IMG/VR virus record: IMGVR_UViG_3300025425_001694
Strand: one strand, 5' to 3'
From: a virus
DNA: 64,000 nt
Part shown: one piece after another, positions 43,672-63,108 of the stretch
How the letters are laid out: each line of letters begins with the position of its first letter
Numbering within the stretch: position 1 is the stretch's first letter
Program-made: the position numbers and the translations under genes
Notes under the pieces: generated by a model
Databases searched by the model: none
Seen by the model: only the letters and a program-made list of their open reading frames with translations
What the model was told of the DNA's origin: nothing

Positions 43672-44589
43672 TTACATTGCTTCTCTTGCGAAACCAAGAA
43701 TTTCTTCAAACCCTGACTTATCTGCCATCGCAGTACTTTGCATTTTCTTACGGTTCGTAGAAGAAAGATCTTTGAACATTTGGTTTAAAAGATCAGCATC
43801 TTGTTTCTTTAGAATAACAGAAGAACCGTCCTTAAATTTTACCATTCCGGTTGCAAACTTTTCGTTTAAGTCTTCGTCAATTTCGGCTTCTTCGGACTTG
43901 TCCCAAGGTGCTTTCTTCAAAGATACTTTACCTTTAGGCTGCACCTTCATTCCTTGAAGAGCTCTTGTAATTGTTTTTTGCGAAATTTTTACAGTTTTTT
44001 TCGAACTTTTTGCTTCATCAATTTCGGCTTCTTCGCCCATAGACATTACTTCAGCTGTAGCGTAACTATATAATGTTTGCATTTCTTTAGCAACACCAGC
44101 TAATTTGTTTTGGAACCATTCTTCAGGATCTTGTGTTGATTGAACATAACGAGCAATACCCTGTACATTGTGTGACATTGAACGCAACGCATTCATCATC
44201 ATTGGCTTTTCTTCCATTGGGTTTTCAGAAAGCTCAACTTCTTCTTTAGCAATAGCTTTAGAAATAGCTTTGCGGCGCTTATGTAGATATTCGTCAGAAT
44301 CGTCAACATCGCCATCATTGTCAATATCTTTATCTTTACGATCTTTGTGCTTACCTTTAAGGGCTTTTGCATCTACTGGATCTATAGCTTCGTATACAGA
44401 TGCATCTTCTCCAGGTGCAAGATCTGCCCTACGCTTGAGTTTAGCTGTCCCAGGTATTTCACCAGTAAACTGATGATCTAAAGCAACAGGATGGCCAACT
44501 TTAGTTACGATGTGTTTATCCTTAAATGCTTTTTCGTCGCCTGCTTTTGGCTGAGCAACTTCAGATATTAAATTCTTAAAGGTTTTCAT
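43672..44589 (-). CDS. Prohead core/internal protein
   Basis: MKTFKNLISE capsid-targeting-like N-terminus; DIDNDGDVD motif; occupies the gp67/68 position. Confidence 0.7.
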   Translation of the reverse strand: MKTFKNLISEVAQPKAGDEKAFKDKHIVTKVGHPVALDHQFTGEIPGTAKLKRRADLAPGEDASVYEAIDPVDAKALKGKHKDRKDKDIDNDGDVDDSDEYLHKRRKAISKAIAKEEVELSENPMEEKPMMMNALRSMSHNVQGIARYVQSTQDPEEWFQNKLAGVAKEMQTLYSYATAEVMSMGEEAEIDEAKSSKKTVKISQKTITRALQGMKVQPKGKVSLKKAPWDKSEEAEIDEDLNEKFATGMVKFKDGSSVILKKQDADLLNQMFKDLSSTNRKKMQSTAMADKSGFEEILGFAREAM

Positions 44590-48681: not shown

Positions 48682-48754
48682 ATTTTTCTCCCCTGTGTAA
48701 GGTTATTTGACACTTGTTTTCAATCTATTCTTGTCTATTTATAAAAAACCGTTT

Positions 48755-50365: not shown

Positions 50366-50795
50366 TAGTTTCACCCTTAATCATTTTAAGTAAATCAGCT
50401 GTAGAAAGTATAAGATTATTATTTGTTACGTTTTGCTGAGTATTAGATGCGCCGTTTTTTTCTTCTTTTGCATATTTTTTCTTAGTTGACATTTCAACAA
50501 AATCTTTGTTTGCGTCAAGGAGTGTTTTCATTAATGTTGATGCGACTTCAAACGCACGTGGAGATTCTGACTGTTTTGCTAGTTCTATCATTTCTTTTAA
50601 TGCGTCATCACCTTGCTCTATAATATTTTTTATATTTCCACGAGCTTGCTCAATATCAACAATAGTGTCATCTTCATCGCTCGAAGCTTCTATTATTTCT
50701 AACGGTTTTTCTTCAATTACTTCTGGCAAATTTTCTTGTTTAGCTTCTTCTAAAGGTCTTAAACCGAGAACTTTTGCAATTTTGTCTTCGCTCAT
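50358..50795 (-). CDS. gp16: Terminase small subunit
   Basis: SESPRAFEV, NNNLILSTADL. Confidence 0.92.
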   Translation of the reverse strand: MSEDKIAKVLGLRPLEEAKQENLPEVIEEKPLEIIEASSDEDDTIVDIEQARGNIKNIIEQGDDALKEMIELAKQSESPRAFEVASTLMKTLLDANKDFVEMSTKKKYAKEEKNGASNTQQNVTNNNLILSTADLLKMIKGETNE

Positions 50796-51613
50796 ACTTC
50801 GGCCTCAGGATCTTCGGTCACAACTCCAATTGGAGCCCAATCATCATCATACTCAACGTCTAAGTAAGGTATGGCCTCATCTACATCGGTTGTTGGTGCT
50901 CCATTTGCAGTCAACCCAGGGAATGTGTTTATGCCCCTTACAGGGTTTACTGTTGCCCCATTCGTTGTATCATAGACATCAGTATCAATAAACTTAATTA
51001 TTTTATTATCTTTTTCCGGTCCAAAATACCAGCATTTCATTGTAAAGTTGAGAGTCCACAGTACAGATCTTCTTTCAGTAAACGCGCCTTCGTACAATTC
51101 TTCGTTCGTAACACCATTTAAAATAAGTGGTATATCAATAGGATCCATGTCATCGATTAATTTAACAGTTGATGTCCATTCCGGTTTAAAGAATGGAATT
51201 ATTTGTTCGACTATTTTTGTTGCATCTTCAGAATATTTTGTCATAATGTATAACGAAAAATCTACATTGTATGGAGCTCCAGACCAAGTGTAGTATCTCT
51301 TATCCTCAGTCTCTGGGTTGGTTTTAAACATTCTTTGTTTTGATGCAATCTTACGAGTACCATCGTATGCCATGTTTGTCATTTCAAAAGACATTCGCGG
51401 GAGTGTAATTGAAGAAGGGTTACTTAAGTTCGGATCTTGTGTAATTTTTGCAAGAAACTTCTGAAAAGGGCCATAAGCAATAGGTACTATAATACTTTGT
51501 ACTTCAGCGTCATTGTTTCCATTCCGCGTGATACGAATCTTATTAAAAAGAGTACCAAACAGAGCAACATATTTTCTTGTACTTGAATTATAAAAGTGAT
51601 TTACAAATGCCAT
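50792..51613 (-). CDS. gp15: Tail sheath stabiliser/terminator
   Basis: FGTLFN, VPIAYGP, LPRMSFE, QIIPFF. Confidence 0.93.
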   Translation of the reverse strand: MAFVNHFYNSSTRKYVALFGTLFNKIRITRNGNNDAEVQSIIVPIAYGPFQKFLAKITQDPNLSNPSSITLPRMSFEMTNMAYDGTRKIASKQRMFKTNPETEDKRYYTWSGAPYNVDFSLYIMTKYSEDATKIVEQIIPFFKPEWTSTVKLIDDMDPIDIPLILNGVTNEELYEGAFTERRSVLWTLNFTMKCWYFGPEKDNKIIKFIDTDVYDTTNGATVNPVRGINTFPGLTANGAPTTDVDEAIPYLDVEYDDDWAPIGVVTEDPEAEV

Positions 51614-51645: not shown

Positions 51646-52551
51646 TTATACTTGTTGGCCTGCAGAGTAGTACCGTGCTTGTGTTAAATCACCAACATCA
51701 GTCGCATTTCCATCAGATGCAAAAGGAAACTTATCAATTGTTCCGATGCCGGGAGTTCCGCCCGATGCATAACCGGATGCATTGCTTGATTGGCCTGCAG
51801 CCCCGGATCTACCTTGTGTTAAATCACCAACATCAGTCGCATTGCCGTCAGCAGCAAAAGGAAACTTATCAATTGTTCCGACTACCGGGGGAGTTCCGCC
51901 TGATGCATAACCAGATACATCGCTTGATTGGCCTGCAGGCCCGGCTGTCGCTACTGTTAAATCACCAACATCAGTCGCATTGCCGTCAGCCGCAAAGGGG
52001 AACTTATCAATTATCATGCTCCAATTGCCGGGGTCCATTCCGCCTGAAGTATACCCAGATACAGTACTTGACTGACCTGCCGCCACATATCTTGCTTGTG
52101 TTAGATCACCAACATCTGTTGCATTTCCGTCAGATGCAAAAGGAAACTTGTCAATAACAGTAGAAGTTGGAAAATGGCCACCAGACGAATAACCCGACAC
52201 TGTACTCGATTGACCCGCAACGGTCTGTCTTGCTACTGTCAAATCGCCAACGTCTGTTGCATTACCATCAGCTGCAAAAGGAAACTTGTCAATAACAGTA
52301 GAATAGGGAGGTGCAGTCCCACCAGAAGTATATCCGGATACTACGCTTGATTGCCCTCCACATATTTGTCCTCTTAATACTGTCAAATCGCCAACGTCTG
52401 TTGCATTGGCATCAGATGCAAAAGGAAATTTATCAATTACATTTGTGGACGCGGTTCCGCCTGAAGTATAACCGCTTACCGAGCCTTGTGCATGTGACGG
52501 GTTTGATACATGTACACTTGCTATCTTATCTTGAGTAATTTTTATTGCCAT
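51646..52551 (-). CDS. Six-repeat Kelch-like beta-propeller protein A
   Basis: 6 x [SGYxSGG-var-IDKFPFAxDxNATDVGDLT-var-AGQ]. Confidence 0.75.
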   Translation of the reverse strand: MAIKITQDKIASVHVSNPSHAQGSVSGYTSGGTASTNVIDKFPFASDANATDVGDLTVLRGQICGGQSSVVSGYTSGGTAPPYSTVIDKFPFAADGNATDVGDLTVARQTVAGQSSTVSGYSSGGHFPTSTVIDKFPFASDGNATDVGDLTQARYVAAGQSSTVSGYTSGGMDPGNWSMIIDKFPFAADGNATDVGDLTVATAGPAGQSSDVSGYASGGTPPVVGTIDKFPFAADGNATDVGDLTQGRSGAAGQSSNASGYASGGTPGIGTIDKFPFASDGNATDVGDLTQARYYSAGQQV

Positions 52552-53451
52552 TTTTCTATCCTAATATTTTATACTCGTTTGTTGACATTATACTTGTTGA
52601 CCTGCTAAACTATAACGACCCGCTGTTAAATTTCCTACATCAGTTGCATTACCGTCAGCCGCAAAGGGGAACTTGTCGATAATATTAGATTGGGCAGGGA
52701 CTTTGCCACCAGAAGAATAACCAGACGCGGTGCTCGATTGACCAGCTGCCTGGCGTTTTACCGTCGTTAAATCACCAACATCAGTAGCGTTAGCGTCAGA
52801 TGCAAAAGGAAACTTGTCGATAATATTTGTGAACGCGCCGCCATCGCCACCAGAAGTATATCCGGATACTGTGCTCGATTGACCAGCTGCATACCTTGTT
52901 ACTCTTGTCAAATCACCAACATCAGTTGCATTACCGTCAGCCGCAAAGGGGAATTTATCAATTATATTTCCAGACCCCAATGTGCTATACCCAGCTGAAG
53001 AATATCCGGATACTGCGCTTGATTGGCCAGCCGGGGAATATCTACCTTGTGTTAAATCACCAACATCAGTTGCATTACCGTCAGCCGCAAAGGGGAACTT
53101 GTCGATAACATTTGTAAGCGTCATGGCGCCGGTTGGATTGGTTCGCCCGCCTGAAGTATAACCAGACGCGTCGCTTGATTGACCAGCCATATAATAACGA
53201 ACCTGTGTCAAATCACCAACGTCAGTTGCATTTCCGTCAGAAGCAAATGCAAACTTATCAATTGTATTCTGCAATGCCTGTGCCGGCCACGTGTTTCCAC
53301 CTGAAGTATACCCAGATACAGTACTTGACTGACCTGCCACAGCATATCTTGCTTGTGTTAGATCACCAACATCTGTTGCATTTCCGTCAGATGCAAAAGG
53401 AAACTTGTCAATAACAGTAGAAGCTGGAAACATGCCACCAGACGAATAACC
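52043..53451. repeat. 152-bp near-identical segment shared by the two propeller genes
   Basis: 52043-52194 vs 53300-53451, 7 mismatches. Confidence 0.9.
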
Positions 53452-53589
53452 ACTTACCGAGCCTTGTTCAGGCGTCGTTGGATGATCGGCAAATTCTAAA
53501 TAGTCATTTACAACAAACTTTGTTTTGTCACCCGGGTTAATATTACCGGATGCATCTACAACTACGGTACCTTTTACTTTATATGTCAT
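52588..53589 (-). CDS. Six-repeat Kelch-like beta-propeller protein B
   Basis: Same framework as A with different loops and N-terminus; both end AGQQV. Confidence 0.75.
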   Translation of the reverse strand: MTYKVKGTVVVDASGNINPGDKTKFVVNDYLEFADHPTTPEQGSVSGYSSGGMFPASTVIDKFPFASDGNATDVGDLTQARYAVAGQSSTVSGYTSGGNTWPAQALQNTIDKFAFASDGNATDVGDLTQVRYYMAGQSSDASGYTSGGRTNPTGAMTLTNVIDKFPFAADGNATDVGDLTQGRYSPAGQSSAVSGYSSAGYSTLGSGNIIDKFPFAADGNATDVGDLTRVTRYAAGQSSTVSGYTSGGDGGAFTNIIDKFPFASDANATDVGDLTTVKRQAAGQSSTASGYSSGGKVPAQSNIIDKFPFAADGNATDVGNLTAGRYSLAGQQV

Positions 53590-53594
53590 ATATC

Positions 53595-54275
53595 TTATCC
53601 AGCATCTGTTGGGTTTGTGATAGTTTCGCTAAACGGATCTATCTCTGTGAAATCTATTATATCATCACCAGCATCTTCAAAGTCTATATTATTTGCAATA
53701 GGATCTTTTGTTTTTAATGCAGTGAGCGAAGTAACAGCAGTTGTTTTATAATTATCAAAAAATGTATCTATATCCGATACACCAGTTTGGAATCTTTCAT
53801 TGGAATATTCAAACAATTCGCACTGAAGGTCGAACACTTGTAAAGCACCACTCTGATAGAAGACGCTCTCATGTTCAACGTGAGTAATTTTAAAGAACTT
53901 GTTAACCATTGGAAAGTATACCAGTTCTCCTTCCTTTGGTCTTAAAATAGTAGGGATTATGTTAGTTACATTTTTCTCAAATGTTCGCATTGCAACAGTA
54001 AATGTAACTTGGTCACGAATTTGTAAACCAAACCTACTAAGGAAGTCGCCTTCACCTTGAAATCCATCAACACTCTTAACATACATTTCCATTTCATATG
54101 AAGTATTAAAGATCGAAAGATCATCTTCATTTAATATATTGTCTACAGCCTGCAAACTACGAGTAAGATAATACGTGTCTATCCCATAAATCTGAATAGA
54201 CTCGATCACCAGGTCATCAATGAGAGTCTGTTCGTTTGAATAATCATAATTATTAAAATATGCGTTAGTAGCCAT
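53595..54275 (-). CDS. gp14: Neck protein
   Basis: EQTLIDDLVIESI, FGLQIRD, RPKEG, CELFEYS, FTEIDPF. Confidence 0.93.
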   Translation of the reverse strand: MATNAYFNNYDYSNEQTLIDDLVIESIQIYGIDTYYLTRSLQAVDNILNEDDLSIFNTSYEMEMYVKSVDGFQGEGDFLSRFGLQIRDQVTFTVAMRTFEKNVTNIIPTILRPKEGELVYFPMVNKFFKITHVEHESVFYQSGALQVFDLQCELFEYSNERFQTGVSDIDTFFDNYKTTAVTSLTALKTKDPIANNIDFEDAGDDIIDFTEIDPFSETITNPTDAG

Positions 54276-54278
54276 GTA

Positions 54279-55022
54279 TTAACCCACAAAATTATAGGTA
54301 AGCGGTTGCAGGGAATTAATAGCGTTTTCTTCCATCTCTTTTCGATCTGTCTTAGCTTCGCTTAATATTTGCTCACCGTTAAACTGTACACCACCTACAA
54401 GTTGCATGTTTGTAAACTTCGTTAAATTAAATCCCCATTGTTCTCTTACTAGAGCTGAAGTGTAATTTTGAAGAAAGCGATCTTGCCAAACATCAGCATA
54501 TGTTTCACCACTTATGATATCATATCCTTCAATGATAATATGCGATCCTGCGACCATTATATTTTTCTTACCATCAATATAAAGGCGATTTACATGGCGG
54601 TTATATCGTACTAAAGGTTTTCCTACTAAAATTTCCTGAAGAAATTGCAGATGAGACATTGACATATAATAGTTCTGTATACTATATCCTGTAATATCAC
54701 TGAGGTTATTTAAAACGAATTGGTATTGCACATTAAAAATGCCAGTACCCGTTGACACAGATGAGCTCAAGTCAAATATTCGAGTAACACCGAGCATATT
54801 TTCCGGTACTGTGACATAACCTTGATCTATTTCAGCTTGGGTGAGCTCGTGCTTAAGATAAACCATTTGACTTCCATCATAATGATAATCTCTCCAAAAA
54901 GATATAGCTTCGTCAATACGGTCTTCAATTTGTTCTTCGGAAACATTTATTTGAATGACCGGAGCACCTATTTTACGAAGTACGTAATCTTTAAACTCTT
55001 CGCGTGTTGTTGGTAATGCCAT
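54279..55022 (-). CDS. gp13: Neck protein
   Basis: LRKIGAPVIQINV, YHYDG, QWGFNL.KF, GGVQFNG. Confidence 0.95.
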   Translation of the reverse strand: MALPTTREEFKDYVLRKIGAPVIQINVSEEQIEDRIDEAISFWRDYHYDGSQMVYLKHELTQAEIDQGYVTVPENMLGVTRIFDLSSSVSTGTGIFNVQYQFVLNNLSDITGYSIQNYYMSMSHLQFLQEILVGKPLVRYNRHVNRLYIDGKKNIMVAGSHIIIEGYDIISGETYADVWQDRFLQNYTSALVREQWGFNLTKFTNMQLVGGVQFNGEQILSEAKTDRKEMEENAINSLQPLTYNFVG

Positions 55023-55076
55023 GTGAGTTAACCTATTTTTGTTTATATTTATAAAAAAAGAGCTATTGTCATTTTT

Positions 55077-55239
55077 CTATTGACATTTTTCAAATAATAG
55101 ATATAATAGAATTATCTATTCTGGGAGTTGTGGTACTAGATTACAATAATTTAATTCAATGCAGGTACCATTTTTCCATTGACATTTCTTCAACAATGAG
55201 TATAATAGAATTATATATTCTAGGAGCCATGGTATTAGA
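55077..55239 (+). repeat. Two diverged ~63-bp promoter-containing units pointing antisense into the minus-strand operon
   Basis: attgacattt...agaattat(c/a)tattct(g/a)ggag...tggta(c/t)taga at about 55077 and 55176; second has TTGACA-N16-TATAAT. Confidence 0.7.
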
Positions 55240-55993
55240 CGCGTTCTATATCTTCTTCAATGCAATTACTGCCGTACTGTATTTCAACTATCCTAACTTC
55301 ATCATTTGTATTATTTATCAATTGATGCCATGTATGGACCGGAATGTATATTTCACCATGTTTTTTAAGTACTGATGTCTGTATATTATCTAGATCATCA
55401 CCATGATTTACGGTTGCTTCTCCGTAACTTACAATCCAATATTCACTTCTTGTTTCGTGTTTCTGCAAACTAAGCGATCTTCCAGGCGCAACAACAAGTT
55501 CTTTTACTTTAGTGGATGGGCCATCAGAATGAAGTACGCGATAATATCCCCATTTTCTTTCTGTTTTTGGTGTTTTCCACTCAGTAAGTATTTTACTGCT
55601 GGAATTCATCTTGTGAATTCCACCTACTCCGAAAACAAATGATAATCTCTTATCTTTAATTTTCATTTCTGGAATGTTATCATCTGTTCTATCTCCACCG
55701 TTCGCAAAGATAATTTCAGCGTTTGGATACATATTTAAACAATTATGAATTGCCTGGGATGCACCACCATCGCTATCGTCGAATACCATTACAGAGTCAA
55801 CGACAGAAAGATTTTTTACAATCTCAACTCTTTCGTTAATATCCATAAACGGTTGGCCTTTTTTACGAGTCAGCCATTCGTTGCTATTTACCCCAACAAC
55901 TAGCACGTCCCCTAACTTTTTCGCTTCATTAAAATATGCTATATGACCAGAATGAATCGGGTCAAATCCGCCTGTAACTAAAACTACTTTCAT
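55235..55993 (-). CDS. Cytidylyltransferase fused to a mannose-6-P-isomerase-type cupin
   Basis: GGFDPIHSGH, ANGGDR, NSSS; RKWG, LSLQKH..RSEYW, WHQL, EIQYG...EEDIER. Confidence 0.88.
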   Translation of the reverse strand: MKVVLVTGGFDPIHSGHIAYFNEAKKLGDVLVVGVNSNEWLTRKKGQPFMDINERVEIVKNLSVVDSVMVFDDSDGGASQAIHNCLNMYPNAEIIFANGGDRTDDNIPEMKIKDKRLSFVFGVGGIHKMNSSSKILTEWKTPKTERKWGYYRVLHSDGPSTKVKELVVAPGRSLSLQKHETRSEYWIVSYGEATVNHGDDLDNIQTSVLKKHGEIYIPVHTWHQLINNTNDEVRIVEIQYGSNCIEEDIERV

Positions 55994-55995
55994 TA

Positions 55996-56709
55996 TCAAT
56001 CTCCTAAATGCATATTTGAAACTTCGCCATCAAAGAAAAACATTTGCCACATTCTACAATCATGTATATTGCTACCAAAATATTCAGAAGCAGCATGTAT
56101 TGATCCACCTTCGAATATAACTAATCTGTTAAAAATATTACCAAAAGAATCTACCGTATCGTATGGAGTCTTATCTAAAAATGTATTTCCAGGAAATACT
56201 TTATGGCCAGTCCCATCGTTCCAATTAATTTGGGAATTATGATGGATTTTAGTTTCTCTATGCATATAGGTACTTGTACCAGTTTGTGGTGGGGCATCTG
56301 GAGTTAGGTATATCATAGCGGCCCATTTTTGTTGGTCACAGTGATATACTAATTTTTCACCGGCGTGGTTGTGTTGAAACCTTCCGTTCATACCATATGT
56401 TTCCCATTCGCTAATTCTTTCGCCAATGATACTTTCAAATGTTTCCTTTAGTCCTGGAAAAAGGTGTTGTGTTCTTGTTCTTTTACCGATATACCCGTCA
56501 TCATCAAAGTATTCTTGTTGAAGCGCAAATTCTCGCATCGCGTAAGGATCCGCATAAAAATTATCAATTATGAATGCTCTTTTGTTTTCTTGTAGATTGG
56601 GGTTAACCGCGTATACAGAAGAATCGTCATGATGAGTAATTTCTTCATCTTGAACTTCTATAATTTCTTCTTCTGTAATTTCTTCTTCTGTAATAAGCCA
56701 ATTTTTCAT
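55996..56709 (-). CDS. 2OG-Fe(II) oxygenase-like protein (DUF6445-like)
   Basis: IIDNFY.DP, YHCD, IYLTP, GT, FNRLV, IHAA, R..Q.FF. Confidence 0.75.
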   Translation of the reverse strand: MKNWLITEEEITEEEIIEVQDEEITHHDDSSVYAVNPNLQENKRAFIIDNFYADPYAMREFALQQEYFDDDGYIGKRTRTQHLFPGLKETFESIIGERISEWETYGMNGRFQHNHAGEKLVYHCDQQKWAAMIYLTPDAPPQTGTSTYMHRETKIHHNSQINWNDGTGHKVFPGNTFLDKTPYDTVDSFGNIFNRLVIFEGGSIHAASEYFGSNIHDCRMWQMFFFDGEVSNMHLGD

Positions 56710-56710
56710 A

Positions 56711-58270
56711 TTAAAAACCCATGTGTTTTTGTCTAACGAAATCTAAATCGTATGTTGTTGCTGAGATTGGTGTTTCTTCACCTTCAAATACTTCTTTATT
56801 AGGAGACAACTTTCTCCAACCGATACCCCATTTACGTGTTAAATAATCAATATTTAACTCATTTGAGTGGTCAAGCTTTTCTTTTAAACCATTTTCGTTT
56901 TTCTCTGTTTGACTACCGGTTTCATAATACATTGTACTATCACCGTGTCCATGCATATATTTATTCTCTAGACCAACAATCTTTCGAATAGGACGATGCG
57001 ACATTCGCATAATATAATCGGCATCTTCACAATATGCGGGGTATGTGTTTTCATCAAACAACCCAAATACCTTTACAACGTTTTCTCGAATAAGGAAAAG
57101 ATCCCACGCGCCAACATTAAAGTCTCCAGCATTTGGATGTATCATGCCGACCATTGGATCGCCGTTTATTCTTTCAACCATTTCGCCTAAAAGACCAGGG
57201 CCAAAGGCGACATCGTCGTTTGCAATAATCCAATAAGGAGCTAACATATAACATTTAATAATAAGGTTCCAAGCACCTGCGCACCCTACATTTGCAGGCA
57301 TGTGAACTACTTTAATATTATCAATAAACTTATGATCCATTTTAACCAAACGGTTGAGCTCTTCATCTAATTCACCCCTGCCATTATTGTTTATAATGAC
57401 AAAGTTTTCTACAGGATAGTCAACACTCATAATAAGTCTTGAAATCCAATAAGTGCTATTTACAACTGGTGCACCTATGACTGGGATTTTATCTACCATA
57501 TTCACCAACTCCTTTATATTAATATTATTTCCGTTTTCTTTCCACCAATCAGTTATAAATTTACTACTCTGATTTTGGATTGTGTCTATATTATCCTTGT
57601 TGTCCTGTCTTATAAGAGTGGAATCATGTACTCTATTTTCTGTAAAGAACGGAAACACGTAGCATCTTTTATAGTTATAAGGATATATTACATTCTCAGG
57701 TAAAGGAATGTGTCTTGTCTCTTTTATTTTTAGGTTGAAAGAATTTGTTTCTACATCGTAGAAGTCATCCAATATTTCCTTTGCATATTCTCGTCGCATT
57801 AAATATGCACAACACGACCAATCATTCCACCTTTTTCTTCTTATTCTCATGTCACTCCAATTAACTGGATCTTCTTTAATTAGTGACATTTGAATAACCT
57901 GCCAATCTTGTGGCAACGGTTCGATAAATTCACTGAAATCAAAGTTCCAATAATCGGCTAGAGAAAAATTAATATCATCTTCGCAAAAGAAACCAATTTC
58001 TTCATCGGTCTCTGTATACCAACGGTATATCATATGTAAATGGGATACTGCAACAGATAGTACTTCAGAAGAAATACCTATAGGACTTAAGTGTGGACTT
58101 GTTATATCTAATTGTTCTCGGATATCAACGGTTCTTCCATCGTATCCTTCAATCATACAAAAATTTACTCCTCTTGAGGACAGCTGCGATTCTAAATCGC
58201 GCTGCCTCTCTAAGGAATCTTTTAAAGAAAGATAATATACTGTTGGAAAGTTTTTAAGCTGCTTCGCCAT
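56711..58270 (-). CDS. Two-domain glycosyltransferase (GT25-like plus GT2-like)
   Basis: YYLSL....ER, GYDG, SH, CEDD; second domain AGAWN, NDD, GLFDEN..PAYCEDADY. Confidence 0.82.
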   Translation of the reverse strand: MAKQLKNFPTVYYLSLKDSLERQRDLESQLSSRGVNFCMIEGYDGRTVDIREQLDITSPHLSPIGISSEVLSVAVSHLHMIYRWYTETDEEIGFFCEDDINFSLADYWNFDFSEFIEPLPQDWQVIQMSLIKEDPVNWSDMRIRRKRWNDWSCCAYLMRREYAKEILDDFYDVETNSFNLKIKETRHIPLPENVIYPYNYKRCYVFPFFTENRVHDSTLIRQDNKDNIDTIQNQSSKFITDWWKENGNNINIKELVNMVDKIPVIGAPVVNSTYWISRLIMSVDYPVENFVIINNNGRGELDEELNRLVKMDHKFIDNIKVVHMPANVGCAGAWNLIIKCYMLAPYWIIANDDVAFGPGLLGEMVERINGDPMVGMIHPNAGDFNVGAWDLFLIRENVVKVFGLFDENTYPAYCEDADYIMRMSHRPIRKIVGLENKYMHGHGDSTMYYETGSQTEKNENGLKEKLDHSNELNIDYLTRKWGIGWRKLSPNKEVFEGEETPISATTYDLDFVRQKHMGF

Positions 58271-60104
58271 TATTAGTTCTGCCCATCATATAATCTTCAG
58301 CCATTTTTGTAGAATCATCGTTATTCTTTAAAATGCTAAACTCATTAGTATTTATAATATCTGGATGGACAAACCAATCTTCATAAGGCCTATCCTTATC
58401 AGGAGATATGTTACCAACAACAAGTTCATAGCCATACGATTTTAAATATTGTCTAGCTTTTTCTCTATATCCGCCGGTTGGATCTGCATAATGATCATGC
58501 TCAAATGTAATTACTCCAAACCTTTTGGTTTCAAACGGCATTGATAATAGTACTTTAAAACTTACTTCGGGCGGATCACAATCAATTTGCAGATAGTCAA
58601 TATCCTTACCAAAGCCAAGACCATTTAAGAATGAGTCGTAATTAACAGTAGTCGCATCTTTAAGAAGACACGTATGGTTTCTTTCTTTGTTATGGCCAGC
58701 AACAAACTCTTCGCTTATATCAAATGATACGCCATTCCAACCATAATCTTTTTCTAATAAGTATGTGTTATTTCCGTATGTAGGATGACCAGAACCAACT
58801 TCAACGTAACTACCGTTTTTCTTACCGCCGAATAATGTAAGAACAAACATATCTTGGTAAGCTTCAGAATAATTCTGTTTGATATTTTCAGAACCAGAAA
58901 ATTGATTTTTTAAACTACTATGTTTTTCATTTGTATATAATGTAAGACTTTTAGATGTGAATGCTCCTAATCTTACGAGGTTTTCATATACTGAATTGCG
59001 ATACTCATCTTTCAAATCATAATTTGTATAGAGATCCATTAACATACTTCTTGAATCCTCACTAAGACCACACCACCAAGCAGTATGAGCTTTTTGGAAT
59101 AATAAGGCATGTTTACCAGGGTAATCCACGACAGTCCTGAGAGGCTCTAATACGTCGTCTGTAAAGGAGTAACCAATTGACGCAGTTGTATACGAGTCAA
59201 ACCATTTACCGTCACCAGGATCATTTTCATAAAACTTACTAAGTAAATAATAACCTTCAGGGCGATGTGGTTGTGTTGCTATTGCGTGCTGCACGATACC
59301 CTTTACAGTAAATCTTCGAGTACCTTGTTTTTCAAAACACATCGCAGCCCGAATGAGACATTCGTATTTTAACAAATCTTCTTCTGTTCTTTCGGCTGTG
59401 CGAATATAAAAAGAAATCGCAGAAGCTAGTTGCCCAATTGTATCGTAGTGTAGAGCTAAATTCCAATTACTTTCAGGGTTATTTGGATCCATGATATAAG
59501 TTTTTAACATGAATTTTAGACCAGTCATTCCAAACATTTTTCCAAATTTTTCGGGGCTAATAAGATTTAACCATTCTACTCTATTTTTGTCAAAGTCTTT
59601 ATATTCTAATTCACCATTTGGTATATCTAAAGTTTTTTGCTTACCTTTTTTAATTATCCCACAACCATGATCTGTATTAACAGTGTACATTTCCAAATCT
59701 TTTCGAGTTGCTCTTAAATTGACAAATGCTTTCCAGCAATCACCATTCCAAGTACCTCCTTTAAATGGTATGATTTGATGTTCTTCCTTAAGTGGGTTCA
59801 TATCGTGACATACTATATAACCACCTTCATTTAAAATATCAACTGCGTTTGTAATATCACGATGAACTTGATCTGCGTGATGTAAACCATCAACAAATAT
59901 TACATCAAAAGTTTCTTTATTTTTTTCAAAAAATTCATCGGACGTTATAACACAATCAGCTTTTGACAGCGGTTCTGGGTCAACACTTACTTTGTGTTTG
60001 CATTTTATTTCTCTCCAATTGTATCCTTCTGAAATTCCTATTTCAAGATAGCTCTTTGCTTCTATTTTGTTTATGAGAGATTGTATAATATCAGTTCTGT
60101 TCAT
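58254..60104 (-). CDS. SAM methyltransferase + TPR + FkbM-like methyltransferase fusion
   Basis: YLEIG, FVDGLH, CHD; TPR-like PHRPEGYY; QD, YVEVG, NT, IDYLQID, ITFEH, EDWFV. Confidence 0.78.
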   Translation of the reverse strand: MNRTDIIQSLINKIEAKSYLEIGISEGYNWREIKCKHKVSVDPEPLSKADCVITSDEFFEKNKETFDVIFVDGLHHADQVHRDITNAVDILNEGGYIVCHDMNPLKEEHQIIPFKGGTWNGDCWKAFVNLRATRKDLEMYTVNTDHGCGIIKKGKQKTLDIPNGELEYKDFDKNRVEWLNLISPEKFGKMFGMTGLKFMLKTYIMDPNNPESNWNLALHYDTIGQLASAISFYIRTAERTEEDLLKYECLIRAAMCFEKQGTRRFTVKGIVQHAIATQPHRPEGYYLLSKFYENDPGDGKWFDSYTTASIGYSFTDDVLEPLRTVVDYPGKHALLFQKAHTAWWCGLSEDSRSMLMDLYTNYDLKDEYRNSVYENLVRLGAFTSKSLTLYTNEKHSSLKNQFSGSENIKQNYSEAYQDMFVLTLFGGKKNGSYVEVGSGHPTYGNNTYLLEKDYGWNGVSFDISEEFVAGHNKERNHTCLLKDATTVNYDSFLNGLGFGKDIDYLQIDCDPPEVSFKVLLSMPFETKRFGVITFEHDHYADPTGGYREKARQYLKSYGYELVVGNISPDKDRPYEDWFVHPDIINTNEFSILKNNDDSTKMAEDYMMGRTNNGEAA

Positions 60105-60117
60105 AATAATTTTCCTC

Positions 60118-61188
60118 TCAACCAATCATATCTTCAATTGTTTTTGGATTTACTTCTAAGATAAATGCTGCATTATCTTGGAACCCGAATGTAATAAGTA
60201 TTTTATCTTTGTAATGACACATGCCTGCTGAAAATTCAGTATGTCCGTTCATTAAAGAAAAATCTTTTGAATGTTTTAGTATATTCCAGTCTTTATCAAA
60301 TAATATAAACCTATGTCGATACACACCATCTTTTCTTCCAACATCACTTTTAAATAAATCAACGTCATGAGTAAGTGTAAGGTAATTATCACCAAACGGA
60401 ATTACTTGCGAACCTCCACGCGGATCCTTACTTAAAAAATTACCAGAAGATTGTAAGTGGCATGTTTCTGATTCGACCCAATTTGATTCAAAAACTTTGT
60501 CATCAGTTGGAGTTTCGTTAACTTTTACAACTTCTACTGGGTTACACCATTTTACATATTTAAAAGGCTGGTCTGCAATTGGCATCCAATTCTTTTCACA
60601 ATATGAATTCTTATCGTTTGGTGGATGAATTCTCCATCTTGAAACTTCTACAACACTATCTTCACGCACTTCAATTTCACAAAGTTCCATTCTCCCTTGG
60701 CCGTTTTCAGTTGTATCACGTCGTACTCCTGATGTAAATAGTTTTCCATTCCATTCAATTAAACGCGCATCCTCAAGACCAACAAAGTCCCACATTGGTT
60801 TGTAGTTGTCAAATTTGCTTGTGTCTATTTTATTAAACCGAGTTATTTCAAACGAATCGTCTAATTCGCAATAATAGTTTTCTGTCCTCAGATGCATATC
60901 GTTCTCGGGATGCAAATACGTAAGAGGTCCCCACGGGTGTTGAAACAGTTTTCTTTCTGAATGATAGAAAGTATAGTTTACGTGTCTTATATTTACAACA
61001 AGTTTACCGTCTATATTCAATATAGACGGGTTCATTAAACCTGTGCCGTTTGTAAGATTTGATGGAATAATGAGGGGGTAAATATCACCCCCATCATTTA
61101 AAACGTTTTTTGCAAAACTATCACTGTCGCCGTAATGATACGTGCTTTCAACTTCTTGTCCATTTTTAGTTTTTTCGAAAAAACTCAT
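60118..61188 (-). CDS. Five-blade propeller glycoside hydrolase/phosphorylase-like protein (GH130/GH43-like)
   Basis: NPSI, GLEDARL, EKNWMP, RGGS, EF..G, FG.QD. Confidence 0.7.
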   Translation of the reverse strand: MSFFEKTKNGQEVESTYHYGDSDSFAKNVLNDGGDIYPLIIPSNLTNGTGLMNPSILNIDGKLVVNIRHVNYTFYHSERKLFQHPWGPLTYLHPENDMHLRTENYYCELDDSFEITRFNKIDTSKFDNYKPMWDFVGLEDARLIEWNGKLFTSGVRRDTTENGQGRMELCEIEVREDSVVEVSRWRIHPPNDKNSYCEKNWMPIADQPFKYVKWCNPVEVVKVNETPTDDKVFESNWVESETCHLQSSGNFLSKDPRGGSQVIPFGDNYLTLTHDVDLFKSDVGRKDGVYRHRFILFDKDWNILKHSKDFSLMNGHTEFSAGMCHYKDKILITFGFQDNAAFILEVNPKTIEDMIG

Positions 61189-61230: not shown

Positions 61231-63108
61231 TTACTTATTTTTAACTTCTTCCTTTAGTTTATTTATCGCGTCGATCATGATTGCAATTAAAGGAATATAT
61301 GAAACAGTTCTTTGACCATTGCCATTTTTCTTTACAAGCTCAGGCATGATTTTTTCTAATTCTTGCGCCATAACACCATAACTCAATTCTTTTGTATCTT
61401 TCCAATTAAACTTATATGTATCAATTTTATCAAGTATTGAAAAGCTATCATTAATTGGTAAAATATTTTCTTTAACTGTTGCATCTGAAAGTGAATTAAA
61501 GCCTGTTGCTGACAAGTCGCCAGTAGAAGGATTAAAATACAGTTTTGTTGTTGACGACGTAATTGTTTGAACAGATCCAGTTGCTCCAACAAAAACCGGA
61601 TAAAAATCTTGATTTGTTGATGTATCATTTAGTGATTGCAATTCATATGCAGAAGCAGCTTCTGCAGCTCCACCTTGAATACCTTGTCCACCAGTAATAC
61701 CTTGGATACCTTGCGAACCAACGCCAGTAATACCTTGGATACCTTGACGACCCTGAATACCTTGAATACCTTGTCCACCAGTAATACCTTGGATACCTTG
61801 TCCGCCAGTAATACCTTGGATACCTTGAATACCTTGAATACCTTGGGCGCCAGCGGCACCAGTAATACCCTGAATACCTTGTCCACCAGTAATACCTTGA
61901 ATACCTTGAATACCTTGAATACCTTGGGCGCCAGCGGCACCAGTAATACCCTGAATACCTTGTCCACCAGTAATACCCTGTATACCCTGTGACCCAGCTC
62001 CAGTAATACCCTGAATACCCTGTTCGCCAGTAATACCTTGAGCACCAGTAACACCTTGGATACCTTGAGCACCAGTAACACCTTGGATACCCTGAATACC
62101 TTGTTCACCAGTAATACCCTGAATACCTTGAACACCCTGAGCACCTACAGAACCTAATGTACCGCTAATACCTTGAATACCTTGTTCACCAGTAATACCT
62201 TGGATACCTTGAACACCCTGTTCACCAGCTCCTGTTAAACCTTGAATACCTTGTTCACCAGTTATACCTTGTATACCTTGAGCACCAGTAACACCTTGGA
62301 TACCTTGGTTTCCAGTACCGTCAGTACCTTGTACACCCTGTTCACCAGTAATACCCTGAATACCTTGGTCACCTTGACTACCTTGGATACCCTGTTCTCC
62401 AGTAATACCTTGGATACCTTGTTCACCAGTAGTACCTTGAGAACCTTGAATACCTTGATTACCGGTACCGTCAGTACCCTGAATACCCTGTTCACCAGTT
62501 ATACCTTGGATACCTTGAACACCCTGAATACCTTGGTCGCCAGTTATACCTTGAACACCCTGGATACCTTGTACACCCTGTTCACCAGAAATACCTTGGA
62601 TACCCTGTTGCGCAATACCTTGAATACCTTGGATACCTTGCGGTCCAACGATGTCTCCGGTGTTAACCCAATCACTACCACCCCAAACCCATAGGTTTGA
62701 TGTTGCTTCGTCAATTACACCGTCAGCCAAAGAAGGCGATGAGAAAGCTGCAGACAGAGTTGTTTGCGGGTTATTTGGCGGATTGACATTAACATCAGGA
62801 ACAGATCCTAATACTTTAAAAGGATCACCCTTTGTACCTTGGAGACCTTGAAATCCCTGAATACCCTGAATACCTTGTTCACCAGTGATACCTTGAATAC
62901 CCTGTGGACCAATTATAGTACTTCCGTCTATCCAATTTCTAGACCCATCTTCATCAGATGCAAGTATGTAACCGTTAGCAGATGGTACGCCAAGATCTGG
63001 TTCTGTTTCAGATAGAGTTAAAAATTCGTATCTATCTTCAGAAACTTCAGATGACGGAGTTTTTGATATTCTACCCGATACGGTAGAATCGGATATTAAT
63101 TTTACCAT
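61231..63108 (-). CDS. Collagen-like fibre with C-terminal intramolecular chaperone (peptidase S74)
   Basis: GIQ/GIT/GEQ triplets; [25 protein letters not shown]. Confidence 0.88.

What the first reader, a model, noticed from the sequence alone, without database searches (positions are those of the whole stretch)
51646..53589. Tandem six-blade propeller genes with invariant framework and hypervariable loops inserted between gp14 and gp15
Seen: 12 repeats over two genes share SGYxSGG, IDKFPFAxDGNATDVGDLT and AGQSS almost unchanged. The two intervening segments differ in every repeat in sequence, and the first also in length (e.g. TASTNV, MDPGNWSMI, NTWPAQALQNT, RTNPTGAMTLTNV; VLRGQIC, QARYVA, TVKRQA). 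Known: a GG doublet plus an xxR segment in six repeats is Kelch-like, and gp14-gp15 are adjacent in T4. Inference: a scaffold-plus-variable-loop binding module, probably displayed at the neck/collar, that generates binding diversity by repeat shuffling.
Basis: partly seen in the sequence, partly recalled or inferred. Interest (0 to 1): 0.82.

Follow-up and report, generated by a model that had tools for sequence, protein, structure and literature searches.

The report
Swappable Kelch-propeller binding genes in phage
An uncultured T4-like phage carries two extra late genes between its neck and tail-terminator genes. Each encodes a six-bladed Kelch-type propeller with a fixed scaffold and one variable face. 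They are probably virion-borne binding heads from a very large, undescribed phage-only family, and near-identical strains differ mainly inside these genes, apparently through blade-level recombination.

Summary
Two minus-strand genes, propA (52588-53589, 333 aa) and propB (51646-52551, 301 aa), lie between gp14 and gp15. Each has a short N-terminal peptide followed by six 45-52-aa repeats.

An AlphaFold2 model built on 102 homologues (pLDDT 93.5) is a six-bladed Kelch propeller; its best PDB matches are KLHL12, Keap1 and KLHL3. The two variable segments are the B-C and D-A loops. These lie on one face, the face with which Keap1 binds NRF2.

The scaffold is held by purifying selection: 91% amino-acid identity, synonymous sites near saturation, dN/dS about 0.05.

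In a strain-level relative (L081), gp14 and both intergenic spacers are 0-0.4% different. propA is 9% different and propB 20%, and scaffold synonymous sites have diverged too. That points to recombination tracts rather than loop point mutation alone.

Copy number at this site is 0, 1, 2 or at least 4 among relatives, and one complete relative has no family member at all. The family has more than 8,000 cluster representatives, no Pfam model, and only one distant homologue in a cultured phage.

Virion or neck display is not shown. No reverse transcriptase was found, so a diversity-generating retroelement (DGR) is unlikely.

This scan has already noted the same family in other genomes.

The parts
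55046..55053 (-). T4-type late promoter motif TATAAATA just upstream of gp13; the likely start of the transcript that carries gp13, gp14, propA, propB and gp15-gp17
   Evidence: Exact-motif search. No minus-strand terminator-like site lies between 55300 and 48600. The next exact motif is at 48736-48743, upstream of gp18.
54279..55022 (-). gp13-like neck protein
   Evidence: Conserved partner of gp14 in all related loci
53595..54275 (-). gp14 neck protein
   Evidence: PF11649, E 4.5e-39; phrog_460 head closure
52588..53589 (-). propA: six-bladed Kelch-type propeller, 333 aa. It starts 5 nt after the gp14 stop.
   Evidence: AlphaFold2 model with pLDDT 93.5 and pTM 0.89. Foldseek against PDB: KLHL12, Keap1, KLHL3 and SAKe6 designs, E about 1e-18.
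53491..53589 (-). propA N-terminal peptide (residues 1-33), a candidate docking adaptor
   Evidence: 23/33 and 22/33 identical in the positional orthologues of G001 and G002, where the loops are only 24-30% identical. Identical in strain L081. pLDDT 63-69, with two short strands.
52591..53457 (-). The six propA blade repeats (residues 45-333). The C-terminal strand closes blade 1.
   Evidence: The same closure is described for Keap1 (PMC12314335).
52552..52587 (-). propA-propB spacer, containing TATAAAATA (52565-52573) and a Shine-Dalgarno-like AGGA
   Evidence: Sequence shown. Identical in strain L081. It is not an exact match to the late-promoter motif.
51646..52551 (-). propB: six-bladed propeller paralogue, 301 aa, with the family's commonest N-terminal motif
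   Evidence: 8,086 cluster representatives at E<=1e-3.
53295..53451 (-). Blade A1 tract recently exchanged with blade B3 (52038-52194)
   Evidence: 95% identity over 157 nt. 81 identical bases and pS 0.065, against a mean of 0.565.
52038..52194 (-). Blade B3, the partner of the exchanged tract
50792..51613 (-). gp15 tail sheath stabiliser / tail terminator
   Evidence: PF16724, E 2.7e-69

Best explanation
propA and propB are accessory late genes. Each encodes a short N-terminal docking peptide fused to a six-bladed Kelch-type beta-propeller.

Shown:
- The propeller is closed by its C-terminal strand.
- Its scaffold is under strong purifying selection.
- Its 12 variable loops (six B-C and six D-A) all lie on one face, the face Kelch domains use to bind ligands.
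- The genes lie in the late neck-to-terminase operon.
- Copy number at this site varies among relatives.
- Near-identical strains differ almost only inside these two genes.

Inferred:
- The proteins are carried on the virion through the N-terminal peptide.
- The variable face binds host-surface or environmental ligands.
- The phage population keeps a repertoire of such heads and reassorts blades by homologous recombination on the conserved scaffold DNA, between paralogues and between co-infecting strains.

Where the proteins sit on the virion (neck, fibre, baseplate or capsid) is unresolved.
For: Fold and topology:
- AlphaFold2 model with pLDDT 93.5.
- Foldseek top 50 PDB matches are all Kelch domains, TMt 0.85-0.94.
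- The profile matches a designed Kelch protein at E 5.6e-4, with the GG doublet in register.
- Keap1 binds NRF2 in the pocket formed by its D-A and B-C loops (PMC12314335).

Selection:
- Framework: 91% amino-acid identity, pS 0.565, pN 0.048.
- Loop 2: pN 0.54, pS 0.73.

Operon context:
- Late promoter at 55046-55053 and no terminator before gp18.
- propA starts 5 nt after gp14.

Adaptor:
- N-terminus 23/33 identical in positional orthologues whose loops are 24-30% identical.
- The common M-A-I-K-I-type N-terminus recurs across 122 family ORFs.

Hot spot:
- L081: gp14 2/523 nt different, spacers 0, propA 9.1%, propB 20.2%.
- Amino-acid changes in propA: 20/90 in loops against 3/192 in framework. 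In propB: 38/76 against 14/192.
- L002: 46 of 79 differences fall in 594 of 5,503 nt.

Recombination:
- Framework pS of 0.145 and 0.342 inside the genes, against about 0 in the flanks.
- A1/B3 exchange tract.
- Three-haplotype mosaic of window, L002 and L081.

Accessory cassette:
- 0, 1, 2 or at least 4 copies at the site.
- About 7 and about 9 paralogues in G001 and G002, none in the complete relative G003.

Association with host recognition:
- Arrays in other far-T4-like phages lie just upstream of gp13. This is inside the published 'host recognition cluster' of marine myophages, located between VrlC and the neck gene (PMC7029224).
- Long forms are fused to Laminin_G_3 and Gly_rich_2 domains.
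- The S-SKS1 homologue follows baseplate and tail-fibre genes.
- A Kelch protein of jumbo phage CBB was found in virions by mass spectrometry (PMC5259590).
Against: - No member of this family has been shown in a virion, and no ligand is known.
- Gene position in a late operon is only circumstantial.
- gp14 and gp15 have no extra domain in lineages that carry the insert, and a complete relative has no family member. The protein is therefore not part of the core neck.
- The strain haplotypes come from short metagenome contigs. Short-read assemblers can build chimeras through such repeats.
- No donor sequence for the variant patches was found in the DNA held.
- The face opposite the variable loops is almost invariant, so the functional site could be there instead.
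Confidence: 0.55

Rival explanations
1. The propellers are multivalent lectins that bind through the conserved face. Each blade would offer the same site, built from the invariant C-D hairpin (the D-x-N-A-T region) and neighbouring residues, as in six-bladed repeat lectins. The variable loops would simply be unconstrained.
For: The C-D hairpin is extremely conserved over 626 blades: N 92%, A 97%, T/S 96%. An N-x-T motif even survives in the 28%-identical S-SKS1 homologue. Six identical sites would give avidity. The comparison with repeat lectins rests on my own knowledge of that class and was not tested here.
Against: Strain-level changes concentrate in the top-face loops, and in propA their pN exceeds pS (0.122 against 0.071), which pure relaxation does not predict. 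Kelch ligand sites are on the variable face. Conservation of the hairpin may be purely structural.
Confidence: 0.15
2. They are non-virion late proteins that act inside the infected cell as protein-binding adaptors, for host takeover, anti-defence or superinfection exclusion, by analogy with poxvirus Kelch proteins.
For: The fold's best matches are intracellular substrate adaptors. Poxvirus Kelch proteins appear among the viral fold matches. Fast-evolving multigene families are typical of arms-race genes.
Against: There is no BTB/BACK or other effector domain. The genes lie inside the late structural operon. The family is associated with the tail-fibre / host-recognition island. Fusion partners are lectin-like and glycine-rich domains.
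Confidence: 0.15
3. The propellers are substrates, scaffolds or partners of the neighbouring modification enzymes, for example hydroxylated, sulfated or glycosylated at the invariant hairpin. In that case the modified surface, not the loops, would be what matters.
For: 43 of 64 family loci carry 2OG-Fe(II) oxygenase or sulfotransferase genes, often as the very next gene after the array. S-SKS1 has a 2OG oxygenase directly upstream. The window has a DUF6445 (2OG-like) gene, a GT25+GT2 fusion and a cytidylyltransferase-cupin upstream of gp13.
Against: Marine T4-like phages carry many such enzymes throughout this island (PMC7029224), so adjacency may be non-specific. A collagen-like fibre in the same island is an equally good substrate. 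No modification has been measured.
Confidence: 0.1
4. The propeller is an enzyme of the galactose-oxidase or glycosidase type.
For: Some viral fold matches are annotated as galactose oxidase.
Against: The top face, where propeller enzymes keep their catalytic residues, is the variable part. There is no family match in Pfam, NCBIfam or PHROGs.
Confidence: 0.03

Closest known systems
Kelch-repeat beta-propellers of BTB-Kelch substrate adaptors (Keap1, KLHL3, KLHL12) and the designed SAKe6 propellers
   Same: Six blades of four strands. GG doublet after strand B. A long, variable B-C loop. Arg in the D-A segment. Closure of blade 1 by the C-terminal strand. Ligand face formed by the B-C and D-A loops.
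   Different: No Pfam Kelch match. The Tyr/Trp pair is replaced by Phe and aliphatic residues. There is no BTB/BACK domain. The blades are far more uniform (91% scaffold identity). The C-D hairpin is invariant. The family is phage-only, with a 24-44-aa N-terminal peptide.
Kelch-domain virion proteins of jumbo phages (for example CBB_552 of vB_PcaM_CBB; 'virion structural proteins' of PhiPA3, Noxifer and Phabio)
   Same: Phage-encoded Kelch-type propellers. At least one was found in particles by mass spectrometry (PMC5259590). They are fold matches.
   Different: Only 12-19% identity. Those proteins match InterPro Kelch signatures. They are not in large tandem repertoires and are not in T4-like neck or host-recognition regions.
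Host recognition cluster (HRC) of pelagimyophages and cyanomyophages (PMC7029224)
   Same: A hypervariable island next to the neck genes that holds fibres, glycosyltransferases and oxygenases. Most arrays of this family lie there.
   Different: The two genes of this window lie on the other side of the neck genes, between gp14 and gp15. The paper does not mention propellers (0 occurrences).
Diversity-generating retroelement targets (Mtd-type variable proteins)
   Same: A phage binding protein with a fixed scaffold and a variable ligand surface.
   Different: No reverse transcriptase in two near-complete relatives. The variation includes indels and whole-tract replacement rather than adenine-directed substitutions.
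Synechococcus phage S-SKS1 SWZG_00001 (phrog_19111)
   Same: The only homologue in a cultured phage: 28% identity, E 1e-16. It has the same repeat plan and N-x-T hairpin and lies beside baseplate and tail-fibre genes and a 2OG oxygenase.
   Different: It comes from a siphovirus. It has at least 8 repeats in a truncated record and a different scaffold consensus.

Membership tests
Kelch-type six-bladed beta-propeller (fold level) | Six blades, each a four-stranded antiparallel sheet | tested here: met
   DSSP of the pLDDT-93.5 model shows 4 strands per repeat. TMt is 0.85-0.94 to Kelch domains.
Kelch-type six-bladed beta-propeller (fold level) | GG doublet after strand B, followed by a variable B-C loop | tested here: met
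   GG in 11 of 12 blades and AG in A4. It aligns to the Kelch GG in the HMM alignment.
Kelch-type six-bladed beta-propeller (fold level) | Ring closure by a C-terminal strand completing blade 1 | tested here: met
   The last strand, 329-332, follows blade 6, and the first repeat supplies only strands B-D. Keap1 is described the same way.
Kelch repeat sequence families (Pfam Kelch_1 to Kelch_6) | Match to a Pfam Kelch HMM; conserved Tyr in strand C and Trp in strand D | tested here: not met
   No Kelch family at E<=1. Strand C has Phe and strand D has Val/Leu. There is only a weak profile match to Kelch PDB sequences, E 5.6e-4 to 0.03.
BTB-Kelch substrate adaptors | N-terminal BTB and BACK domains | tested here: not met
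   The N-terminus is only 24-44 aa long, with no Pfam hit.
T4 neck/collar components (gp13, gp14, fibritin wac) | Homology to these proteins, or presence in every member of the lineage | tested here: not met
   No such Pfam or PHROG hit. Absent from the complete relative G003 and from the gp14-gp15 junction of all relatives with gp14 at or below 78% identity.
Virion structural protein | Detected in purified particles | not testable with these tools
   There is no cultured member of the clade. Only contextual evidence is available.
DGR variable protein | Cognate reverse transcriptase and a template repeat with adenine-specific mismatches | tested here: not met
   No RVT_1 in G001 or G002, while the control genomes gave hits. 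The differences include indels and synonymous scaffold changes. The window itself was not scanned for a reverse transcriptase.
Host recognition cluster cargo (PMC7029224) | Located in the hypervariable island between VrlC and the neck genes | tested here: inconclusive
   Met for most family arrays, which lie immediately upstream of gp13. Not met for these two genes, which lie between gp14 and gp15.

The most novel reading that the evidence does not exclude
Uncultured T4-like phages maintain a combinatorial repertoire of Kelch-propeller adhesins. Single blades act as exchangeable cassettes: homologous recombination on the invariant scaffold DNA reassorts loop sets between paralogues and between strains. 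This would be a recombination-based host-range diversification system, comparable in logic to pilin or VSG cassette switching and an alternative to DGRs. The invariant N-x-T hairpins might additionally be sites of phage-encoded modification.
Probability: 0.3. Interest if true: 0.78.

Novelty: new variant of a known kind. Interest (0 to 1): 0.58.

Why it matters
Host recognition by the abundant uncultured marine and saline T4-like phages is largely unknown. This family is very large: more than 8,000 clusters at 50% identity, all viral where a source is known. It has no Pfam, PHROG or NCBIfam functional annotation, and I found no published description in the library searched.

In this lineage it is the main difference between strains that are otherwise more than 99% identical. 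If the proteins are virion adhesins, they are prime candidates for host-range determinants, and the regular scaffold is a natural template for engineered binders.

The gp14-gp15 site offers a clean natural experiment, with 0, 1, 2 or at least 4 copies between conserved flanks. It can be tested with long-read metagenomes.

Tried and rejected
- Single-sequence AlphaFold2 gave pLDDT 48 and was unusable. The model built on an alignment replaced it.
The five further paralogues reported by earlier notes outside my window therefore could not be read. Close relatives G001 and G002 were used instead.
- I searched for donors of the variant patches of L002 and L081 in all DNA held. None was found.
- DGR rejected.
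- Literature searches on 'kelch' plus phage mostly returned the author B. A. Kelch in reference lists. Only the CBB paper, the 2010 T4-like cyanophage genome comparison (PMC3037559) and the long-read metagenome paper mention phage Kelch proteins.
- I considered a calcium-binding reading of the D-x-N-x-T-D hairpin (EF-hand or integrin-like). I set it aside because T, V and D lie along a beta-strand in the model, too far apart to bind one ion. This was not tested further.
- An Asp-box reading was considered: the position in the blade fits, but the spacing does not.
- PF14040 and PF14789 'hits' fall below their cut-offs with no significant stretch, so I treat them as repeat noise.
- NCBIfam gave nothing.
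Full report
**What is there**

On the minus strand the window carries a T4-type late structural block:
- a collagen-like fibre gene (61231-63108; many tail-fibre PHROGs);
- modification enzymes (55235-61188);
- an exact TATAAATA motif at 55046-55053;
- gp13, then gp14 (PF11649);
- two repeat genes, then gp15 (PF16724);
- gp16, gp17, a second TATAAATA, gp18, tail tube, portal, protease, scaffold and major head protein.

No minus-strand terminator-like site lies between gp13 and gp18.

The two repeat genes are propA (52588-53589, 333 aa) and propB (51646-52551, 301 aa). propA starts 5 nt after the gp14 stop. propB follows a 36-nt spacer.

Each protein has a short N-terminus (44 and 24 aa) and then exactly six repeats of 45-52 aa. 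Tandem Repeats Finder and the repeat finder (12 copies) confirm the periodicity. The one caveat is that the second segment keeps Arg in 9 of 12 blades and Tyr in 7 of 12.

**Fold**

A single-sequence AlphaFold2 run failed (pLDDT 48). With an alignment of 102 family members (A1) the model reached pLDDT 93.5 and pTM 0.89, with four strands per repeat.

Foldseek against the PDB returns only Kelch domains at the top: KLHL12, Keap1, KLHL3, KLHL17 and the designed SAKe6 propellers. E-values are about 1e-18, target-normalised TM is 0.85-0.94, and rmsd is about 2 Å. A profile of A1 also finds Kelch sequences in the PDB weakly (SAKe6FR E 5.6e-4, KLHL12 0.02), with the GG doublet in register. No Pfam Kelch model matches. 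Sequence-family membership is therefore not met, although the fold clearly is.

In the model the order of elements is: strand B (the G-Y-x-S-G-G block), variable loop 1, strand C (the I-D-K-F block), the invariant hairpin, strand D, variable loop 2, strand A (the A-G-Q-S-S block). Loop 1 is therefore the B-C loop and loop 2 is the D-A loop. In a four-strand meander these two loops lie on the same face. The final A-G-Q-Q-V strand completes blade 1.

Keap1 is described in the same terms. Its blade I has three N-terminal strands plus one C-terminal strand, and NRF2 sits in a pocket made of the D-A and B-C loops (PMC12314335). It rests on topology, because I could not read the model coordinates directly.

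**Selection on scaffold and loops**

Across the 12 blades the 30 scaffold codons are 91% identical in protein. Their synonymous sites, however, are close to saturation: mean pS 0.565 and pN 0.048, giving dN/dS about 0.05. The invariance is therefore purifying selection on old repeats, not recent duplication.

Loop 2 has pN 0.54 against pS 0.73. Loop 1 varies in length from 6 to 13 residues.

One pair stands out. Blade A1 (53295-53451) and blade B3 (52038-52194) are 95% identical over 157 nt, with 81 identical bases and pS 0.065, and the identity includes the loops. This is a recent blade-level exchange between the two genes. Low-pS pairs do not follow blade position, so propA and propB are not simple whole-gene duplicates.

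**Close relatives: a sharply bounded hot spot**

L002 (IMG/VR) matches window 58498-52996 at 98.6% identity. Of its 79 differing columns, 46 fall in the last 594 nt, which belong to propA. Every amino-acid change lies in a loop, the linker or an x position.

L081 is a 2,540-nt metagenome contig that spans the 3' end of gp14 to the start of gp15:

| Region | Differences from the window |
|---|---|
| gp14 | 2/523 nt |
| both spacers | 0 |
| propA | 9.1% |
| propB | 20.2% |

The N-terminal peptides are identical. Amino-acid changes are 20/90 in loops against 3/192 in scaffold for propA, and 38/76 against 14/192 for propB.

Scaffold synonymous divergence inside the genes is 0.145 for propA and 0.342 for propB, while the flanks are essentially identical. 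Differences also come in patches that alternate with identical stretches. Positive selection on loops alone cannot produce this pattern. Tracts must have been replaced by recombination with diverged copies.

In propA the window, L002 and L081 form a three-way mosaic. L002 matches L081 in the linker and blades 1-2, but matches the window in blade 3.

Two caveats apply. These are short-read contigs, and assemblers can create chimeras in such repeats. No donor sequence was found in the DNA I hold.

**The insertion site**

- Relatives with gp14 at 64-78% identity have gp14 directly followed by gp15, as in T4 (L070-L072, L074-L077, L082-L086).
- L073 has an unrelated 2.8-kb insert at the site.
- In the clade with gp14 at 89% identity or above, the site holds one propeller gene (G001/L066; G002/L069/L080), two (window, L081) or at least four (L079; L001/L068).
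- Positional orthologues next to gp14 keep the N-terminal 33 residues (22-23/33 identical) and the scaffold (81-89%). Their loops are only 24-30% identical, no better than between paralogues.
- The second genes (propB and the second propeller gene of L001) have unrelated N-termini.
- Whole records: G001 (91% complete) has about 7 paralogues. G002 (complete, 201 kb) has about 9, in three places. G003 (complete, 194.6 kb, gp14 76%) has none.

The family is therefore accessory. gp14 and gp15 have the same length with or without the insert, which gives no support for a dedicated neck docking site.

**The family**

phmmer against 1.84 billion cluster representatives finds 8,086 proteins at E<=1e-3 and 1,460 at E<=1e-30. 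ESM Atlas neighbours are 100% viral.

Pfam and NCBIfam give no family. The only PHROG is phrog_19111, of unknown function. Among 50,697 phage records only S-SKS1 matches, at 28% identity. Its gene follows baseplate-wedge and tail-fibre genes and a 2OG-Fe(II) oxygenase.

In 64 IMG/VR loci the genes form tandem arrays of up to seven, mostly immediately upstream of gp13 in far-T4-like phages. That position lies inside the 'host recognition cluster' described for pelagimyophages and cyanomyophages, between VrlC and the neck gene (PMC7029224). That paper does not mention propellers.

Longer family members carry Laminin_G_3 or Gly_rich_2 domains at the N-terminus. About 40% of 122 complete family ORFs start with an M-A-I-K-I-type strand, as propB does. 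propA has a second recurrent type.

Phage Kelch proteins are known in jumbo phages, and one (CBB_552) was found in virions by mass spectrometry (PMC5259590).

**How it most likely works**

My best reading (confidence 0.55) is that these are virion-borne binding heads. A short N-terminal peptide would dock the protein to a shared site on the particle. The rigid six-blade scaffold would present 12 loops on one face to a host-surface or environmental ligand. The population would reassort blades by homologous recombination on the conserved scaffold.

The fold, the loop topology, the selection pattern, the operon context, the copy-number variation and the strain-level hot spot are shown. Virion location, ligand binding and the docking role of the N-terminus are inferred.

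Neck or collar display in particular is unsupported. A DGR is unlikely: there is no reverse transcriptase in G001 or G002, and the variation includes indels.

The rivals are a conserved-face multivalent lectin, an intracellular adaptor, a substrate or partner of the neighbouring modification enzymes, and an enzyme. They are listed with their tests in the Rival explanations section.

**Comparison and novelty**

The fold and the idea of a Kelch propeller carried by a phage are known. The new elements, as far as the held literature shows, are:
- this specific, very large and unannotated family;
- its repertoire organisation;
- the gp14-gp15 cassette site;
- the evidence for blade-level mosaicism between strains.

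This scan has already flagged the same family in other genomes, and in this genome, with similar readings. This report adds the strain-level comparison, the site copy-number series and the recombination signature.

I rate it a new variant of a known kind, of moderate to good interest.

Noticed in passing
window 55070-55240 (+ strand): Two tandem ~99-nt units each carry a perfect sigma-70 consensus (TTGACA, 16 nt, TATAAT; 55080-55107 and 55179-55206), followed by a short AGAAT...ATTCT inverted repeat. They point away from gp13 and antisense to the minus-strand late genes that start at 55235. The repeat is conserved in L002, L003 and L044. They may be early promoters, or a source of antisense RNA over the late modification genes.
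   Followed up: partly
L017:11312-13506; L055:2122-5344; L024:2348-6790; 43 of 64 family loci: Propeller arrays in other T4-like phages are followed directly by a sulfotransferase (PF13469/PF00685; phrog_27463) and a fusion protein with a 2OG-Fe(II) oxygenase domain, then gp13. Extra 2OG oxygenases and a methyltransferase lie between arrays. The enzymes may be functionally linked to the propellers, or the link may be no more than shared residence in the hypervariable island.
   Followed up: partly
window 51646-53589, C-D hairpin of every blade: The invariant hairpin D-(G/A)-N-A-T lies on the face opposite the variable loops. Over 626 family blades it is N 92%, A 97% and T/S 96%. The 28%-identical S-SKS1 homologue keeps N-E-T. 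From my own knowledge, it has the form of an N-x-S/T sequon, and even of the extended bacterial D/E-x-N-x-S/T sequon. It could equally be a purely structural turn. Not tested.
   Followed up: no
L073:4636-7416: One relative (gp14 68% identical) has a ~2.8-kb insert of unrelated content between gp14 and gp15. The junction is therefore a recurrent insertion site for other cargo as well.
   Followed up: no
window 55235-61188: Upstream of gp13 lies a run of modification genes: a cytidylyltransferase fused to a mannose-6-P-isomerase-type cupin, DUF6445, a 519-aa ORF that earlier notes call GT25+GT2, and a methyltransferase-like 623-aa ORF. Beyond them lies a collagen-like fibre gene (61231-63108). 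This corresponds to the host recognition cluster of PMC7029224.
   Followed up: partly
window 43672-44589 (-): A 305-aa ORF between the portal and prohead protease genes matches only PHROGs of unknown function, through a short 50-aa stretch.
   Followed up: no
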